This document shows, piece by piece, positions 35,917 through 41,355 of a DNA stretch of 64,000 nt. Each line of letters opens with the position of its first letter. The first letter of the stretch is position 1. The DNA comes from Candidatus Heimdallarchaeota archaeon (GTDB lineage: Archaea; Asgardarchaeota; Heimdallarchaeia; JABLTI01). The notes below the pieces were generated by a model. The model did not search any database. It was not told the DNA's origin and saw nothing but the letters and a program-made list of their open reading frames with translations. The stretch is from contig DXJV01000100.1 of the NCBI GenBank assembly GCA_019056785.1, positions 1 to 64,000 of the forward strand, written 5' to 3'. The position numbers were made by a program, and so were the translations under genes.

Positions 35917-37221
35917 ATGACTGAAGTCGAATATGATGTTATAATTGTTGGTGCTGGTTGTGCAGGACCCGCTGCAGCAAAGAAAGCAGCAGAATTAGGA
36001 CTGAAAACGCTCCTTTTAGAAAAATCCCGAACGCCTGGAGAGAAAAATGTTTCGGGGACATGTCTAAACATGGCGGCGCTTGTTGATCCTGATTTACATT
36101 ATCTTATGAAAGGTCCTGTTGAAAGGGAAATTACCGAAATGCATTCGTATATGATTACGCCAGAGCGAACGACGATGTTTCGTGAAACCCCGAGTGAAGG
36201 GTTGATTCTTTTATCGATTCGCCGCGACCACTTCGATGCCTGGCACACGGAAGAAGCTCGCAAAGCCGGTGCAGAGGTCCGCTTAGCAACGACAGTAGTG
36301 GATATCATTGAAGAGAATGATGCGATAAAGGGCGTCATTACTGATAAAGGCGAGAAACTTCGAGCAAAAGTGATTATTGATGCTGCCGGCGTGAATTCCA
36401 TTGTTGGCCGAAAAGCAGGGCTTATTCCCAAGCGCAAAGGAACGGATATGATTCTCTATGTTACGGTGAATGTTCATCTTGGTGAGAAACTGGTCACCGA
36501 ACGTTTTGGCAACTCCATTTACTATTTCCTTGCCCCACAGACTCAATACAAGACTTGGCCATGGGCATTTCCAAAGAAAGACGTTGTCACTTTCGGCACA
36601 GGTGGCTATCTGGATGACAACCTCTTCAAAGATGGCATAAACTCTGTCAACGACTATATGCAGAACCTTTTGGATCTGCCCGTTATTAAAGAGAAAATAA
36701 AAGGGGGAAAAATTGCCTCTTGGGGCTTGCACCTCGAGTTTGATGAGGCATTGGAGCGGCGAACACGTGATGGATTAATCCTCACCGGTGAAGCAGGGGG
36801 ATTTGTGATTCCTTTCTTGGGCGAAGGAATGGTCGAAGCCTTCTTGACAGGCATTTATGCTGCCCAAACCGCAGCTAAAGCCATCGAAGCGAACGATGTT
36901 TCAGCAGCATTTCTAGAAGAACATTTTATGGAATACTATACAGGCAATGTTTTCTTGCAAAGCTTCCGCTATGTAGCTGACTTTAATAAGAAATCCATTC
37001 TCTCTATGCCTGACGAAGAAATCGCAGCAATGATGCAAAATGTCTGCATTGGTGGTGGCTTTATCAGTAACGCAATTCATTACAACTGGATGAAAGGCGC
37101 AGACGAAGACGATATGAGTTTGGTCCAAGAGGCCAAAGATTTCTATGAATTTATCCAGCCATATCGACAAGTTGGTTCGGAATCAGTAGAAATTTATAAA
37201 AAAATGAGGGCTGAAAAATGA
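35917..37221 (+). CDS. Geranylgeranyl reductase/FixC-family FAD-dependent oxidoreductase
   Basis: YDVIIVGAGCAG, PGEKN, RRDHFDAW, DAAGVNS, WAFP, GEAGG...PFLGEGM. Confidence 0.9.
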   Translation: MTEVEYDVIIVGAGCAGPAAAKKAAELGLKTLLLEKSRTPGEKNVSGTCLNMAALVDPDLHYLMKGPVEREITEMHSYMITPERTTMFRETPSEGLILLSIRRDHFDAWHTEEARKAGAEVRLATTVVDIIEENDAIKGVITDKGEKLRAKVIIDAAGVNSIVGRKAGLIPKRKGTDMILYVTVNVHLGEKLVTERFGNSIYYFLAPQTQYKTWPWAFPKKDVVTFGTGGYLDDNLFKDGINSVNDYMQNLLDLPVIKEKIKGGKIASWGLHLEFDEALERRTRDGLILTGEAGGFVIPFLGEGMVEAFLTGIYAAQTAAKAIEANDVSAAFLEEHFMEYYTGNVFLQSFRYVADFNKKSILSMPDEEIAAMMQNVCIGGGFISNAIHYNWMKGADEDDMSLVQEAKDFYEFIQPYRQVGSESVEIYKKMRAEK

Positions 37222-37478
37222 AGGTCGAAATGAAAGTTGACTATTATCCCGGCGACCCCGGAGAGTTTGTGCGAGTCGATGAAAGCAAATGTACCGGTTG
37301 TGGCGAATGCGCCAAATTCTGTACACGAAATGTATGGGTACAAGATGGCAAGATCTTTCGCCCAAAGAACTTGAAAGCATGTGTCGAATGTGGTGCTTGC
37401 TGGAATGTTTGTGAGTTTGACGCAGTCATTTTTGAAGAACCAAAAGGAGGAACTGGTGTAAGATTTGAATATGGATAG
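37218..37478 (+). CDS. 2[4Fe-4S] ferredoxin (FixX-like); 3' end apparently supplied by the inserted islet
   Basis: CTGCGECAKFC and CVECGACWNVC; ATGA overlap with the upstream reductase. Confidence 0.93.
   Translation: MKVEMKVDYYPGDPGEFVRVDESKCTGCGECAKFCTRNVWVQDGKIFRPKNLKACVECGACWNVCEFDAVIFEEPKGGTGVRFEYG
37392..37478 (+). repeat. Left copy of 87-bp imperfect direct repeat (ferredoxin 3' end)
   Basis: 72/87 identical to 39868-39954; first 23 nt identical (GGTGCTTGCTGGAATGTTTGTGA). Confidence 0.95.
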
Positions 37479-37494
37479 AGTTTCCTATCCATTT

Positions 37495-37806
37495 CTATTT
37501 TACTAATTCTCCTTTGAATGCTTTGTGAAGAATGGATTGTTTAAGTTCTTTAATATTTTCAGCCGCTTTAGTGGATTTTTCTAATATTTATTTTTTCTTT
37601 TCAAAAATAGTGTCAAAAAATAATACTAAATTTTTTTGTTGGTTTTTATCAATTACATCATCTATTGTAGGCAGAGGTATTTTCATCGACTTTAAATTAT
37701 TCTGAGCTATACCTCCTTGTGTTGAACCATGAAATTTGTTTGCAAATTGATCTTGACCAAGATATGAAAATAAAACGTAAGAAGCATAATGTTTTGATTT
37801 TAACAC
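37495..37806 (-). pseudogene. hsdS: Type I R-M specificity subunit (HsdS) C-terminal fragment
   Basis: GSTQGGI...LKSMKIPLP, in-frame TAA at 37588, then LKQSILHKAFKGELVK*; 5' part missing. Confidence 0.8.
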
Positions 37807-37925
37807 AAAGTAGGAAAGATCTTCCGGTAGACGTACAAGGAATGTTAGTTGAGCATTTTAATATTGATGATCCATATAATGATATTTATACAAAAGTAAA
37901 AAAATTGGTTAAAAGGTATAAGTGA
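37719..37925 (+). pseudogene. C-terminal fragment of a TIR/nucleoside-deoxyribosyltransferase-like protein
   Basis: NVLILTQSRKDLPVDVQG resembles the LPxD motif of such domains; N-terminus overlaps the hsdS fragment. Confidence 0.35.
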
Positions 37926-37943
37926 GAAACAGACATTAGATTC

Positions 37944-38785
37944 CTAGGAGATATTTAACATTATTTTAATTTTCTCTAATCTACTTTTATCTTTGATGAA
38001 ATAATCGAATACCTTTTCAATAGAAATAAATCTTATTTGCGGAAAATCATTCTTTTTAAATTTCTCAGTTTCCTTTGGTGCAAAGAAAAATAAAATTGTA
38101 TCATTATTAGATATTGAATCCTGTAAAGATTGTAATTTATTAATTATTGTTTTTTTATTTTCTGCAAAAGTTACTTGAGCACAGATTCTGATATTTTCTT
38201 TATTTAAACCATAAATATCAAAATCTTTCTGCCCCCTTCCAATAGGTTGAAGAAGAAATTCTATTTCTTCTTTGCTTTTTAAAATTCATAACAGATAATT
38301 TCTAATTGTTCGGGAGAAAGCGATTTAACTTCTAAAGGTAATTCTTTTTCATAATAGAAATATCTCAAAACTTTAGATACTTTTGACCACTCTTTTATAG
38401 TTCCCCTAGGTTGACTGGATTGGAAGATAGGATAATCCATAAAAGAAACTTCTCTAAAACTACTTAATTGCATTGTTTTAAGTTTATATTCATTCTTTTT
38501 CAAACAACCTATTTTTGTACCTTTTGTGATTTTACCTACAAGTATAGCATCTTTTCTTATTCGTCTAAAATCAGCAGCGACTATAGCACCTTCTTTTGAC
38601 ATTTTGTGCATCAAATCAAATGCAAATTTTACTTCTCTAAAATTTTTTTTATATTTGTTAGGATTTGTGCTACATATATTCTCATAATGAATTGCTATTT
38701 TTTTTTCATCCCATAATTTTTCAAGTAAATCTTTTGGAACTGAGATATTGTGTCTTATAAAAACTATAATTTCCTCTTTGTCCAT
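37944..38785 (-). pseudogene. Mrr-like PD-(D/E)XK restriction endonuclease, frameshifted
   Basis: LSPEQLEIICYEF* continues in the -1 frame as LKSKEE...PIGRGQKDFDIYG...AQVT to TAG at 37944; apparent 1-nt loss near 38280. Confidence 0.75.
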
Positions 38786-38790
38786 AATAT

Positions 38791-39048
38791 CTAATCGATT
38801 TTTCTACATTTAAAATATTTATCATCAAAAAGTAAAGCGCCTTCCCCACGATCTGTTCTACCAAGAAAAATCTCATAATCGAATTCTACAAGATAAGGAT
38901 AATCCATTATTGTTGGAAATTCTTTTTGATATTTAACAATAAAAGATTTCAAAAGTGTTTCATCATCAACGGGTCCTTGAACTCTGCACCAAATTTCTTT
39001 TCTAACATGTTTATCATAAATAGCTAATTGCTTGTTTTTTATCATCAA
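38791..39048 (-). CDS. Hypothetical protein, possibly a truncated nuclease fragment
   Basis: Islet-like codon usage; co-oriented 5 nt upstream of the Mrr-like gene. Confidence 0.45.
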   Translation of the reverse strand: MMIKNKQLAIYDKHVRKEIWCRVQGPVDDETLLKSFIVKYQKEFPTIMDYPYLVEFDYEIFLGRTDRGEGALLFDDKYFKCRKID

Positions 39049-39867
39049 ATCATTTCCTTAAGAAAAAAATTATGATTGATATTAAGCTCTCAATCCACCA
39101 CTAAATTTCGCTTCAAAAAGTTTTTTACTTATTTTGAATCCTTAGTTTGAAGGCCATCATGTAATGGCTTGAAATTTGACCGGCTGTTTTTTGAGCAATA
39201 GTCCAGATAACCCAATCAAAACGATCCTTACAAGCAGGATCATACACCGAAAAAGAAGGAAAAGTAAAGATAGGATAAGAGAAAAAAGAGTAATTTTTGG
39301 GTTACGAGTAAAATAAAGACCTATGACTTTACCGGCAGGATAAGGAACAAGAAAAGTATGCTTGTGAGTGGTTACATCTGGCATATCAAACATTAATTTA
39401 GACATTTCAAAATAAATATCTGTTAAAGGATTATGTATAATAAGCTGTTTTTGATGTAAAGAAGAATTCTTGAAACTATTTCGATAGAATTGTTTAATGA
39501 ACTCATGAGTTAATTTTTCTCGACCAATAGTCTTAGCTTCTTCAGTTGAAGAAATAATACTAGTAATTATTTCAGAAACTTGAGCAGTAAAAAAAAGAGA
39601 TTGCTGAATCAATAAGTTGAACTAAATCAGAAGATTTCATAGTAAATACATCCCTATACCAAAAGAATAACCTCAGAGGAAAAAATAATGGTTGCGAGAG
39701 GAAAAAAAGGAACTCTTCTCAGAAAAAGAAAACAGATGAGAAGAGAAGAAGGAAAAAGGATAAAAAGGAGAAAAAAGAACATAAAAACATCAATGCAACA
39801 AAAAGAAAAACGCTTCTCAAATGAGAAGAGAAGGAGAAGATTCCAAATGAAGAAAGAAAACCTGTAC

Positions 39868-39954
39868 GGTGCTTGCTGGAATGTTTGTGAATTTGACGCC
39901 GTCATTTTCGAAGAACCGAAAGGCCGTACCGGTGTTCGCTTTACTTATGGTTAG
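39868..39954 (+). repeat. Right copy: displaced original ferredoxin 3' end
   Basis: Encodes GACWNVCEFDAVIFEEPKGRTGVRFTYG* with host-like codons (ggc cgt acc cgc); directly followed by the GGAGG RBS of the SCP2 gene. Confidence 0.93.
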
Positions 39955-39965
39955 GAGGACTTCAA

Positions 39966-40301
39966 ATGGTTACAGATGAAGAGATTGTTTCTGAAATGGA
40001 CAAATTCCGCGCAAAGATGACTGATGAAAAATACGCCCGTCATTTCAAGAATTGGAACAAAACAATGCAATACTTCTTCAATGACACAGGTGACTATTGG
40101 CACATCGTTGTTACCAATGGACAACCGGGCAAGCCCGCGAAGGGAAAAGTTGACAAACCGGATATTAACTACGAAATGTCTACAACAGACTTTTTGGATT
40201 TGATGCAAGGACGCATTTCGGGTCTCAAACTTTACAACCAGAAACGGTTGAAAATCAAAGCTTCCATGCCGGACATTCTTAAGCTGCAAAAATTAGCTTG
40301 A
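39966..40301 (+). CDS. SCP2 sterol/lipid-binding domain protein
   Basis: GKVDKPDINYEMSTTDFLDLMQGRISGLKLYNQKRLKIKASMPDILKL. Confidence 0.9.
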   Translation: MVTDEEIVSEMDKFRAKMTDEKYARHFKNWNKTMQYFFNDTGDYWHIVVTNGQPGKPAKGKVDKPDINYEMSTTDFLDLMQGRISGLKLYNQKRLKIKASMPDILKLQKLA

Positions 40302-40386: not shown

Positions 40387-41355
40387 ATGAATTATCCCAT
40401 GCCAAGGCGGCCTGATGCTGAACTTATCAAAACATCAAAGTTTCGCGAGCTGGAATTTTATGTCATGCCAACTCGAGCAGAGAGCATGATCTTTTATTAC
40501 ATGCAGATTGATCTGACACACACGTTAGAATTTCTGGAAGAATACAACAAAAATCGCTGTGAAGAGGATAAGCTTACTCTCTTTCAGCTTCTCCTAACTG
40601 CAGGGGTGCGAACAATTGCTTACCGGCCAAAGGTCAATCGGTTTGTTGCCGGGCGACGGTTATGGCAACGCAATCAAATCCTTTTCTCTTTTGTGGTCAA
40701 TAAATCCAAAACAGAAGCTGGTGAAGAAGTTCTTGCTATGATTGAATTTGATCCCTTTGACACTCTCGAGACTGTGCAAAAAAGAGTCAGCGAAAAAATT
40801 CACGAAGCTCGCTATGGTGAAAATAAAAATGAAAAGGACATCAAATTTTATGGCGCCATGCCCCGCTTTTTAATTCGCTTTATTTTCTGGTTCGTTCGCT
40901 GGCTGGATGAACACAATCATCCTCCCTATTTCATAACTCGAGATATGCCTCTTTGGTGTTCTGTGTTCATCGCTCATCTGGGCTCAATAAATATCGATTC
41001 AGTTTATCATCATCTTTACAATCTTGGGACAGCAAGCTTTTTCATCACAATTGGAAAAATCCACAAAGCCACCGTATTAAATCAAGAAACCAATGACATT
41101 GAGATAAAACAGGTAGTGGACCTTCGGCTTACAATTGATGATCGCATTGCCAATGGCATTTATACCGGACGAACCGTAGATATGCTCAAAAATTTCATTG
41201 AACATCCAGAGCCACTTCTCGAACCACCGGCACTTACTGATGAACAACTAGATGCTTTAAAGTTGAAAAAATACAAAAAAGAACGCCTTGCTCGCGAAAA
41301 GCAACGCCGGAAAGAACTGCGACAAGCAAAACGGCGTAACAGAACAAAACAATAA
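40387..41355 (+). CDS. 2-oxoacid dehydrogenase E2-like acyltransferase catalytic-domain protein (no lipoyl domain)
   Basis: PKVNRFV, AHLGSI, TIDDRIANG in place of DHRxxDG. Confidence 0.82.
   Translation: MNYPMPRRPDAELIKTSKFRELEFYVMPTRAESMIFYYMQIDLTHTLEFLEEYNKNRCEEDKLTLFQLLLTAGVRTIAYRPKVNRFVAGRRLWQRNQILFSFVVNKSKTEAGEEVLAMIEFDPFDTLETVQKRVSEKIHEARYGENKNEKDIKFYGAMPRFLIRFIFWFVRWLDEHNHPPYFITRDMPLWCSVFIAHLGSINIDSVYHHLYNLGTASFFITIGKIHKATVLNQETNDIEIKQVVDLRLTIDDRIANGIYTGRTVDMLKNFIEHPEPLLEPPALTDEQLDALKLKKYKKERLAREKQRRKELRQAKRRNRTKQ

What the first reader, a model, noticed from the sequence alone, without database searches (positions are those of the whole stretch)
37392..39954. Islet integrated into a ferredoxin Fe-S motif, supplying a recoded replacement 3' end
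Seen: the last 29 codons of the ferredoxin are duplicated around a 2.4-kb AT-rich insert (72/87 nt identical, 26/28 aa). A 23-bp identical core begins inside CxxCGACWNVC, and most differences are synonymous. The left, functional copy uses islet-like codons (gga gga, gta aga). The right, orphan copy uses host-like codons and still leads into the SCP2 RBS. Established: some elements restore protein-coding targets this way (e14 in E. coli icd). Inference: the attP of an element family specialised on conserved ferredoxin codons, a target I do not know from archaea. The insert also separates reductase-ferredoxin from SCP2-acyltransferase.
Basis: partly seen in the sequence, partly recalled or inferred. 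Interest (0 to 1): 0.75.

Follow-up and report, generated by a model that had tools for sequence, protein, structure and literature searches.

The report
Defence islet inserted in ferredoxin gene end
A 2.4-kb piece of foreign DNA carrying worn-down defence genes sits inside the last 29 codons of a ferredoxin gene of an uncultured Asgard (Heimdall-group) archaeon and replaces the gene's end with its own copy. This is a known way for mobile DNA to insert, seen here at a new target and without any recombinase gene.

Summary
An 87-nt direct repeat (72/87 nt, 26/28 aa, first 23 nt identical) brackets a 2,389-bp insert of about 27% GC between a FixX-like ferredoxin and SCP2. Twelve related genomes have ferredoxin directly followed by SCP2. 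Three independent assemblies of this species carry the insert, so it is neither a paralogue pair nor a chimera.

The support is moderate.

The insert is a decayed defence islet. It holds an HsdS stump, an MspJI/NucS-like nuclease, an 85-aa ORF and the N-terminal stump of an ApeA-like HEPN protein. It has no integrase.

One congener (G005) has a 14-kb defence island with a homologous arm: two 9-bp inverted-repeat pairs in the same geometry, joined to a ferredoxin tail at the same codon. There the native copy is on the left, which a simple crossover at the core does not predict. G008 holds a third, decayed tail copy.

Most likely this is a Campbell-type insertion by a lost or trans-acting site-specific recombinase. 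Host homologous recombination on a captured gene fragment is a serious rival.

Insertion into 3' ends of protein genes is already known in archaea. This is a new member of a known kind, and the same stretch was read the same way before in this scan.

The parts
35917..37221 (+). FixC-like FAD-dependent oxidoreductase; first gene of the interrupted operon
   Evidence: Pfam FAD_oxidored, GIDA and DAO. It is 80-82% identical to the syntenic gene in congeners.
37218..37478 (+). FixX-like 2x[4Fe-4S] ferredoxin, 86 aa. It is a hybrid: native codons 1-58 plus a tail that is probably insert-supplied.
   Evidence: Pfam Fer4 families. GC3 is 0.47 in the head and 0.18 in the tail. A JGI relative is named 'ferredoxin-like protein FixX'.
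37392..37478 (+). Left repeat (attL-like). The identical 23-nt core is 37392-37414; the rest is the replacement tail.
37479..39867 (.). Inserted islet, 2,389 bp, about 27% GC
   Evidence: Composition profile. Absent from 12 relatives. Present at 99.8% identity in Ga0190349_1000057, and its attL side in Ga0164310_10000424.
37500..37857 (-). Remnant of a type I restriction specificity subunit (HsdS): C-terminal part only, with an in-frame stop
   Evidence: Pfam Methylase_S, E = 4.6e-4; six-frame reading.
37944..38785 (-). Two-domain nuclease gene (280 aa when intact) with a C-terminal PD-(D/E)xK-type domain. It is frameshifted at about 38281 in this assembly only.
   Evidence: Intact in two other assemblies. 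Five homologues at 36-41% identity, one of them in a restriction/defence neighbourhood. The AlphaFold model has pLDDT 79; best fold matches are MspJI, NucS/EndoMS and AspBHI, E = 1e-4 to 6e-3, whole-chain TM only 0.25-0.3.
38791..39048 (-). 85-aa ORF of unknown function
   Evidence: No hit in Pfam, PADLOC or NCBIfam. The one PHROGs query failed on a coordinate error. The ORF is conserved in the second assembly.
39157..39640 (-). Stump of an ApeA-like HEPN defence gene. Only the N-terminal ~120 residues are homologous. It is frameshifted at about 39589 in this assembly only.
   Evidence: 36% identical to the 190-aa gene at the end of the G005 island. A profile of the two finds 511-512-aa proteins whose N-terminus matches. 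The G005 partner ORF hits HEPN_Apea. The frameshift is absent in L055.
39641..39867 (.). Insert-side arm (P arm). It holds two inverted-repeat pairs of CTCTTCTCA / TGAGAAGAG: 39713-39745 (15-nt spacer) and 39811-39830 (2-nt spacer).
   Evidence: 73% identical to the arm in G005. The pairs are 98-99 nt apart, and the last repeat lies 38 nt from the ferredoxin tail, in both genomes. The 16-mer is expected 0.02 times by chance in the window.
39868..39954 (+). Right repeat (attR-like). The core is 39868-39890; the rest is the orphaned, probably native, ferredoxin end with G->R at an invariant glycine.
   Evidence: One of the few strain differences falls in this core (39876 C->T in L055).
39966..40301 (+). 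SCP2-family protein, cut off from ferredoxin by the islet
   Evidence: Pfam SCP2. It lies 18-40 nt after ferredoxin in relatives.
40387..41355 (+). 2-oxoacid dehydrogenase-type acyltransferase; last gene of the operon
   Evidence: Pfam 2-oxoacid_dh. Syntenic in G007 and G009.

Best explanation
The 2.4-kb stretch is the decayed stump of an integrative defence island.

Inferred: the island entered as a circle by one reciprocal (Campbell-type) crossover within the 23-nt block GGTGCTTGCTGGAATGTTTGTGA. This block lies inside the second Fe-S motif of a FixX-like ferredoxin gene.

Inferred: the circle carried, next to that core, its own copy of the last 21 codons plus a stop. The gene therefore stayed intact as native head + core + imported tail.

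Inferred: the native tail was left behind, joined to the island's other arm, directly in front of SCP2. There it has begun to decay (G->R at an invariant glycine).

Inferred and not shown: the crossover was most likely made by a site-specific recombinase. That enzyme recognised the core and, perhaps, the two 9-bp inverted-repeat pairs in the arm. Its gene was lost in the deletions that also truncated the HsdS and ApeA-like genes, or it acted in trans.

Shown:
- the repeat and its sharp left edge;
- the empty sites in relatives;
- the foreign composition of the insert;
- the truncated cargo genes;
- the conserved arm in a congener.
For: 1. It is an insertion. Twelve relatives have reductase-ferredoxin-SCP2 contiguous. 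The insert has about 27% GC. Three independent assemblies carry it.

2. Topology. Identity is perfect for 23 nt at the left edge, and then 15 of the next 64 nt differ. This is the pattern expected from a crossover at that edge.

3. Polarity.
- Host-versus-islet codon log-odds are -0.11 bits for the left tail and +5.77 bits for the right tail.
- The right tail's divergence from congeners is close to what the gene's head predicts. Mean residual is +0.025 in one calibration and +0.050 in a second, with residual SD 0.042-0.046.
- The left tail is closer to congeners than predicted in both calibrations (+0.086 and +0.113). It is closest to the low-GC clade G010/G008/G001, at 84-86%.
- Tail GC3 is 0.18, head GC3 is 0.47.

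4. A family exists.
- The G005 island has a homologous arm with the same repeat geometry and the same junction codon.
- A homologous ApeA-like gene sits next to that arm.
- A third, decayed tail copy in G008 also begins at the C-W codons.

5. Core matching. In G000 and in G005 the extra copy shares a 23-nt block with its own host's ferredoxin, and that block carries host-specific synonymous variants.

6. Decay. The terminal cargo genes are truncated, so loss of a recombinase gene is plausible.
Against: - No integrase or other recognisable recombinase is present in the islet or in the 14-kb G005 island. Pfam, PADLOC and NCBIfam were tried; the PHROGs query failed on a coordinate error and was not repeated; two island ORFs gave nothing in the protein atlas.
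- In G005 the left ferredoxin tail and SCP2 are 90-96% identical to the sister species G004, contiguously with the reductase. The right SCP2 is closest to another genus: 70% to G011 against 50-65% to its own genus, and the two cluster in a tree with 90/83 support. So in G005 the foreign copy is on the right. This is the opposite of what a crossover at the core predicts.
- G008 also has native ferredoxin-SCP2 on the left of its insert.
- No free element with this site was found in viral, metagenome or genome collections.
- The polarity statistics rest on 21 codons. The left tail lies at the 16th percentile of host windows, which is not outside the host range.
- The inverted repeats lie upstream of the ApeA-like gene and could simply be its operator.
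Confidence: 0.5

Rival explanations
1. The topology is the same (one crossover of a circle, imported tail on the left), but no dedicated integrase was involved. The islet family carries a captured piece of the fixX(-SCP2) operon. It enters new hosts through the host's homologous recombination on that piece, and the crossover can fall anywhere in the homology.
For: - No recombinase gene is present in either island.
- Crossover position seems to differ between loci. It is at the left edge in G000. In G005 it appears to be at the far right, at the SCP2 stop, where the two copies share 14 identical nt.
- This single mechanism explains both arrangements.
- The 23-nt identical block is the longest perfect match in the 87-nt homology, which is where homologous recombination would be expected to start.
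- The imported tail resembles native tails of congeners, as expected if it is re-templated by earlier hosts.
Against: - 23 nt of identity within 83%-identical DNA is very short for homologous recombination.
- The edge of the extra ferredoxin tail falls within about four codons (C-W to Q-C-G-A-C-W) in three loci, one of them with an unrelated arm. That looks more like a defined recombination site than like repeated capture.
- In both G000 and G005 the core matches host-specific synonymous variants. That is what a site-specific system requires.
Confidence: 0.3
2. The polarity is reversed. The left tail is native. A cassette made of the islet plus the arm plus a foreign ferredoxin tail was inserted immediately after the native stop codon. 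The join was illegitimate or homology-facilitated, and the cassette came from a donor chromosome. This is the arrangement seen in G005 and G008.
For: - G005 and G008 both show native genes on the left and a foreign or decayed tail at the far end of the insert.
- The right copy in G000 carries Arg at an otherwise invariant Gly.
- The arm-to-tail junction is shared with G005, so arm + tail could travel as one unit.
Against: - It requires a join within at most 4 identical nt at the stop codon, and it leaves the 23-nt perfect block at the other edge unexplained.
- The right tail has host-like codons and close to the divergence expected of a native G000 tail. The left tail lacks the GC3 rise seen in the rest of the gene and is unusually close to the G010 clade.
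- The naive combined codon odds are about 59:1 for the other polarity (5.88 bits).
Confidence: 0.15
3. The feature is an artefact or an ordinary duplication: a chimeric assembly, or a remnant of two tandem ferredoxin paralogues.
For: The window comes from a MAG that is 82.5% complete with 4% contamination. It has two homopolymer frameshifts that other assemblies lack.
Against: - A 40-kb JGI contig spans both junctions at 99.8% identity, and a third assembly spans the left one.
- All 12 relatives examined locus by locus have a single ferredoxin followed by SCP2. In the whole class only G000 and G005 have a second strong ferredoxin match.
- The right copy has no head, and a foreign arm abuts it.
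Confidence: 0.02

Closest known systems
e14 and phage 21 integration into icd of Escherichia coli
   Same: The target is the 3' part of a protein-coding gene. The element supplies a diverged, largely synonymous replacement end. The original end is left as an orphan at the other junction. Identity is perfect only in a short core.
   Different: Those elements encode their own tyrosine integrase next to the attachment site, and excision has been shown. Here no integrase is present, the host is an archaeon, and the replaced segment is only 28 codons plus the stop.
[quoted passage not shown] 2019, PMC6563490)
   Same: Archaeal elements in gene 3' ends, verified by comparing occupied and empty sites. 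Some introduce a new stop codon or gene end. Many are cryptic integrated elements.
   Different: Their repeats are mostly under 25 bp. Their listed targets include a Zn-finger protein, an AsnC-family regulator, dihydroxy-acid dehydratase and elongation factor 2; no ferredoxin was in the passages I read. Here the repeat is 87 nt, the host is Asgard, and there is no integrase.
Mobile elements of Ca. Heimdallarchaeum (HeimV1, HeimM2/HeimV2, aloposons; Wu et al. 2022, PMC8813620)
   Same: Same archaeal class. Integrated elements that carry imported genes.
   Different: HeimV1, the aloposons and two CRISPR-Cas operons integrate at tRNA genes, HeimV1 by a viral integrase. Those elements are tens of kb long. 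The present islet is 2.4 kb, sits in a protein gene and has no integrase.
Casposons, some of which use the 3' end of the elongation factor 2 gene (as summarised in PMC6563490)
   Same: An archaeal element in the 3'-distal part of a conserved protein gene.
   Different: Casposons carry Cas1 and terminal inverted repeats, and they make short target-site duplications by staggered cutting. None of these is present here.
Defence islands, as gene neighbourhoods rich in restriction, HEPN and TIR genes
   Same: The cargo here is an HsdS remnant, an MspJI/NucS-like nuclease and an ApeA-like stump. The G005 relative carries HerA, TIR, HEPN_Apea and TnpB genes.
   Different: A defence island is a description of gene content, not of a mechanism. 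The special feature here is the duplicated gene end.

Membership tests
Integrase-driven integrative element that restores its protein-coding target (e14/icd type) | Direct repeats at both ends that are a partial duplication of the target gene's 3' end | tested here: met
   87-nt repeat covering the last 28 codons plus the stop.
Integrase-driven integrative element that restores its protein-coding target (e14/icd type) | A short identical core at one edge, then diverged and mostly synonymous differences, with the target gene kept intact | tested here: met
   23 identical nt, then 15/64 differences; 9 of 11 changed codons are synonymous. The left ORF is full length and keeps all invariant residues.
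Integrase-driven integrative element that restores its protein-coding target (e14/icd type) | Empty site in related genomes | tested here: met
   Twelve relatives have ferredoxin followed within 18-40 nt by SCP2. No empty site was found in the same species.
Integrase-driven integrative element that restores its protein-coding target (e14/icd type) | An integrase (tyrosine or serine recombinase) encoded in the element, usually next to the attachment site | tested here: not met
   No recombinase hit for any ORF of the islet or of the G005 island in Pfam, PADLOC or NCBIfam. The PHROGs query failed. Two unknown ORFs gave nothing in the protein atlas.
Integrase-driven integrative element that restores its protein-coding target (e14/icd type) | Excision to a circle, with restoration of the empty site | not testable with these tools
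   No reads are available. No free copy was found in the viral, metagenome or genome collections.
Integrase-driven integrative element that restores its protein-coding target (e14/icd type) | Same crossover point in every occupied site of the family | tested here: inconclusive
   The arm-to-tail junction is at the same codon in G000 and G005, and within 2-4 codons in G008. But G005 and G008 have the native copy on the left, which a crossover at the core does not give.
Casposon | Cas1 integrase, terminal inverted repeats and a short exact target-site duplication | tested here: not met
   No Cas1. The only end-proximal inverted pair is 33 nt, 73% complementary and low-complexity, one of 16 similar pairs in 4.5 kb. 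The flanking repeat is 87 nt and diverged.
SSV-type integrating element | Integrase gene split into two parts at the two ends of the integrated element | tested here: not met
   The end genes are an HsdS remnant and an ApeA-like stump.
Type IV (modification-dependent) restriction enzymes of the MspJI/AspBHI kind (for the 280-aa cargo protein) | N-terminal DNA-recognition domain plus C-terminal PD-(D/E)xK nuclease domain | tested here: inconclusive
   Foldseek best matches are MspJI (E = 1e-4), NucS/EndoMS and AspBHI, but whole-chain TM is only 0.25-0.3. D190 and a Q-V-T motif are invariant in 6 homologues. There is no Pfam hit.

The most novel reading that the evidence does not exclude
A family of Asgard defence islands spreads among Heimdallarchaeia by carrying a portable end of the fixX(-SCP2) operon as its landing pad, together with a conserved arm holding two 9-bp inverted-repeat pairs. 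The family would use either a recombinase of an unrecognised kind hidden among the unannotated island ORFs or no recombinase of its own at all. In the second case it would be an integrase-less, homology-anchored mobile island that keeps its core matched to each host's synonymous codons.
Probability: 0.2. Interest if true: 0.7.

Novelty: new member of a known kind. Interest (0 to 1): 0.42.

Why it matters
- Mobile elements of Asgard archaea are barely charted, and those described in Ca. Heimdallarchaeum integrate at tRNA genes. This locus shows a protein-coding landing site in the group.
- It is a clean natural example of a gene end swapped for a foreign, differently coded copy within an Fe-S motif.
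- It marks the fixC-fixX-SCP2 operon as a recurrent insertion point for defence genes in one genus.
- For annotation, the ferredoxin here is a mosaic, and the 88-codon ORF upstream of SCP2 is an orphan gene end fused to a non-coding arm.
- The conflict between this locus and its congeners may separate integrase-driven from homology-driven island transfer, once complete genomes or reads are examined.

Tried and rejected
Searches for more family members
- Exact-pattern scans with the arm palindrome returned only a same-species contig from metagenomes, an unrelated 4-kb contig from the viral set, and G005 plus 42 chance hits in unrelated organisms from the species genomes.
- A BLAST of arm + tail over all 83 genomes of the class found the arm only in G005. 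The other hits were native ferredoxin tails or purine-rich low complexity.
- A search of 400 genomes of the phylum with the ferredoxin found a second strong match, within the class, only in G000 and G005.
- Back-translated ferredoxin motifs in viral contigs gave nothing.

Search for an empty-site allele in the same species
- The nearest ferredoxin in 5.8 billion protein clusters is only 85% identical.

Search for an integrase
- Pfam, PADLOC and NCBIfam gave no recombinase for any ORF. The one PHROGs call failed on a coordinate error and was not repeated. Two atlas look-ups of unknown island ORFs gave no usable hit.

Cargo leads
- Relatives of the ApeA-like gene (P0048, P0049) lie in other defence neighbourhoods without a ferredoxin, and their DNA was not retrievable.
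- The nuclease homologue in G010 is on another contig (C11), away from the ferredoxin on C13.

Ideas rejected
- End-proximal inverted repeats as transposon ends: rejected as low-complexity noise.
- The 88-codon ORF 39688-39954 as a real gene: rejected. It is open because the arm is purine-rich, and the conservation with G005 is at the DNA level (palindromes).
- Reading the two TAA codons in the G005 left SCP2 as recoding: rejected in favour of nonsense mutations. The sister species G004 has CAA at both positions, and TAA ends other genes at this locus.
- The divergence calibration for G005 tails did not discriminate between the copies.
Full report
**The observation**

The window encodes a four-gene operon on the + strand:
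- a FixC-like FAD oxidoreductase (35917-37221);
- an 86-aa FixX-like ferredoxin (37218-37478);
- an SCP2-family protein (39966-40301);
- a 2-oxoacid-dehydrogenase-type acyltransferase (40387-41355).

Between ferredoxin and SCP2 lie 2,389 bp with GC 0.24-0.33. The flanks have 0.39-0.49 and the genome 0.386.

The last 87 nt of the ferredoxin gene recur at 39868-39954, with 72/87 nt and 26/28 residues identical. The first 23 nt are identical. Similarity ends abruptly on the left, inside C-x-x-C-G-A-C-W, and at the stop codon on the right. Eleven codons differ, nine of them synonymously. Nothing else in the 2.87-Mb assembly resembles the core, the tails or either arm.

**It is an insertion, not a paralogue pair or an artefact**

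In twelve related genomes the reductase, ferredoxin and SCP2 genes are contiguous, with 18-40 nt between ferredoxin and SCP2. Eight of these are from the same genus, one is from a sister genus and three are from another family. Across the class, only G000 and G005 have a second strong ferredoxin match.

A 40-kb JGI contig (Ga0190349_1000057) of the same species carries the whole structure with both junctions at 99.8% identity. A third assembly (Ga0164310_10000424) carries the left junction.

Names attached to relatives place the organism in the Heimdall group of Asgard archaea.

**What the insert holds**

On the minus strand, from left to right in window coordinates, it holds:
- the C-terminal stump of a type I restriction specificity subunit with an in-frame stop;
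- a 280-aa gene;
- an 85-aa ORF with no match;
- a 160-aa ORF.

The two apparent frameshifts in the window (about 38281 and about 39589) are single-base homopolymer differences. Both genes are intact in the other assemblies.

The 280-aa protein has five homologues at 36-41% identity, one of them inside a restriction/defence neighbourhood. Its AlphaFold model (pLDDT 79) best matches MspJI, NucS/EndoMS and AspBHI. These are two-domain enzymes with a C-terminal PD-(D/E)xK nuclease. The match is weak over the whole chain.

The 160-aa ORF is homologous for about 120 residues to the N-terminal domain of 511-512-aa proteins. In G005 the corresponding gene is split into 190 + 322 aa, and the second part hits HEPN_Apea. 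Both end genes of the islet are therefore truncated. The islet is a worn-down defence island. It has no integrase, transposase or Cas1.

**Which tail is native**

1. Topology. A perfect 23-nt block at the left edge followed by 23% divergence is what a crossover at that edge leaves. The opposite polarity needs a join within at most 4 nt at the stop codon.
2. Codon usage. I compared 524,457 host codons with 525 islet codons. The 21 codons after the core score -0.11 bits (host versus islet) in the left copy and +5.77 bits in the right copy. That is naive odds of about 59:1 for 'left imported, right native'. However, the left tail alone is only at the 16th percentile of host windows.
3. Divergence. 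Among native orthologues, tail identity follows head identity with a residual SD of 0.042-0.046. The right tail is close to that expectation (mean residual +0.025 in one calibration, +0.050 in a second). The left tail is too close to all congeners in both (+0.086 and +0.113). It is closest to the low-GC clade G010/G008/G001, at 84-86% against 73-74% expected.

The head of the gene has GC3 0.47, the right tail 0.36 and the left tail 0.18. The orphan's Gly-to-Arg change at a residue invariant in all orthologues fits release from selection.

**A related island in a congener**

The 227-nt arm between the ApeA-like stump and the right repeat is 73% identical to a stretch in G005, a Ca. Heimdallarchaeota MAG (isolate 12F4_9).

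Both arms hold two inverted-repeat pairs of CTCTTCTCA / TGAGAAGAG, with spacers of 15 and 2 nt. The pairs are 98-99 nt apart, and the last repeat lies 38 nt from the start of a ferredoxin tail. In G005 the arm is likewise joined to a ferredoxin tail at the G-A-C-W codons and is preceded by the homologous ApeA-like gene.

In each genome the extra copy shares a 23-nt block with its own host's ferredoxin. That block carries synonymous variants seen in no congener examined: AATGTTTGTGA in G000 and AACATCTGTGACTATGA in G005.

A third copy exists in G008. Relative to G010 and G001, G008 has a 5.6-kb insert downstream of SCP2 that holds two ABC ATPases and two unknown genes. At its far end lies a decayed ferredoxin tail that again starts at the C-W codons.

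**The complication**

A better assembly of the G005 species (GCA_019058195.1) resolves that locus. In order it holds:
- the reductase and the ferredoxin;
- the left SCP2, full length but with two TAA nonsense codons where the sister species G004 has CAA;
- a 14-kb island with HerA, TIR, TnpB and the ApeA-like operon;
- the arm, then the right ferredoxin tail;
- the right SCP2, split at codon 33 by a multi-copy TnpB insertion sequence;
- the acyltransferase, DUF362, QueE and QueC.

The left tail and left SCP2 are 90-96% identical to G004, contiguously with the reductase. The acyltransferase side is 90% identical to G004. The right SCP2, in contrast, is closest to genus g2: 70% to G011 against 50-65% to its own genus, and it clusters with G011 with 90/83 support. 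The reductase tree nests G005 inside the genus.

So in G005 the foreign copy is most likely on the right and the insert begins after the left SCP2. G008 is arranged the same way. A crossover at the core cannot give this. A crossover at the far end of a longer captured homology could: the two SCP2 copies share 14 identical nt at their stops. Transfer of the island together with a donor's flank could also give it.

G004 cannot settle the question. Its contigs end inside SCP2 and inside the acyltransferase, and its MAG holds no arm.

**Mechanism**

What is shown is a Campbell-type topology in G000, at a site that recurs in a small family.

What made the crossover is inferred. These points favour a dedicated site-specific system:
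- the constant edge in three loci;
- host-matched cores in two host-element pairs;
- conserved, geometrically fixed inverted repeats that could be arm-type binding sites;
- truncation of both end genes, which makes loss of a recombinase gene plausible.

These points favour host homologous recombination on a captured operon fragment:
- no recombinase in either island;
- crossover positions that appear to differ between G000 and G005/G008.

I give 0.5 to the first, 0.3 to the second, 0.15 to reversed polarity with an illegitimate join, and about 0.02 to artefact or ordinary duplication. The repeats in the arm may equally be the operator of the ApeA-like gene.

**Comparison with what is known**

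The arrangement works like e14 or phage 21 in icd of E. coli (my own knowledge, not checked here). It fails the family's central membership test, an element-encoded integrase.

In archaea, 14 of 68 thaumarchaeal integrated elements sit in 3'-distal parts of protein-coding genes (PMC6563490). No ferredoxin was among the targets listed in the passages I read.

In Ca. Heimdallarchaeum, HeimV1, the aloposons and two CRISPR-Cas operons integrate at tRNA genes (PMC8813620).

This is therefore a new member of a known kind: a new target and a new host group, with an unusually long and diverged repeat. One open point gives it some further interest, namely the missing recombinase and the conflicting polarity in congeners.

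**Earlier notes of this scan**

Earlier first-reader notes read the same stretch the same way, and also flagged the HsdS stump and the split nuclease gene. I confirmed both. I also found that the split is absent in the other assemblies.

Noticed in passing
window 38281 and 39589: Two single-base homopolymer length differences break the 280-aa nuclease gene and the ApeA-like stump in this assembly. Both genes are intact in Ga0190349_1000057, and the nuclease also in Ga0164310_10000424. These are likely sequencing or assembly errors, or strain variation.
   Followed up: yes
L022 2862-3191 (G005:C105) and L056 (GCA_019058195.1): Both SCP2 copies of G005 are dead. The left one has two TAA codons where the sister species G004 has CAA. 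The right one is split at codon 33 by a TnpB-only insertion sequence that has at least 10 copies in G005 and several in G004.
   Followed up: partly
L023 3660-9288 (G008:C84): A 5.6-kb insert downstream of SCP2, absent in G010 and G001, holds two ABC ATPases, a 915-aa ORF and a 329-aa ORF. It ends in a decayed ferredoxin tail copy that starts at the C-W codons.
   Followed up: partly
downstream of SCP2 in G001, G010, G008, G000, G009, G007: The region after SCP2 is highly variable within the genus. In G001 QueE is directly adjacent. G010 has a TetR gene plus a 592-aa SCP2-FMN reductase fusion. G000, G007 and G009 have the acyltransferase. G010 also has two tandem acyltransferase paralogues elsewhere.
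   Followed up: partly
L022 15359-16890 (G005): The ApeA-like HEPN gene is split into overlapping 190-aa and 322-aa ORFs. Metagenomic relatives (P0048, P0049) are single proteins of 511-512 aa that lie in defence-rich neighbourhoods.
   Followed up: partly
phylum-wide search: FixX-like ferredoxins 77-85% identical to this one occur in a different family of the phylum (f20, genera g53/g54). That is as close as same-genus orthologues, which hints at lateral transfer of the operon.
   Followed up: no
window 39688-39954: An 88-codon ORF fuses the purine-rich arm in frame to the orphan ferredoxin tail. A conserved ATG-AAR-AAA-GAA lies 7-8 codons before the tail in both G000 and G005. This is probably not a gene, but gene callers will annotate it.
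   Followed up: partly
window 39841, 39862, 39876: Three of the few differences between the two assemblies of this species cluster within 36 nt around the arm/core junction. One of them breaks the 23-nt core identity in the other strain. This is consistent with a site that is no longer under selection.
   Followed up: no
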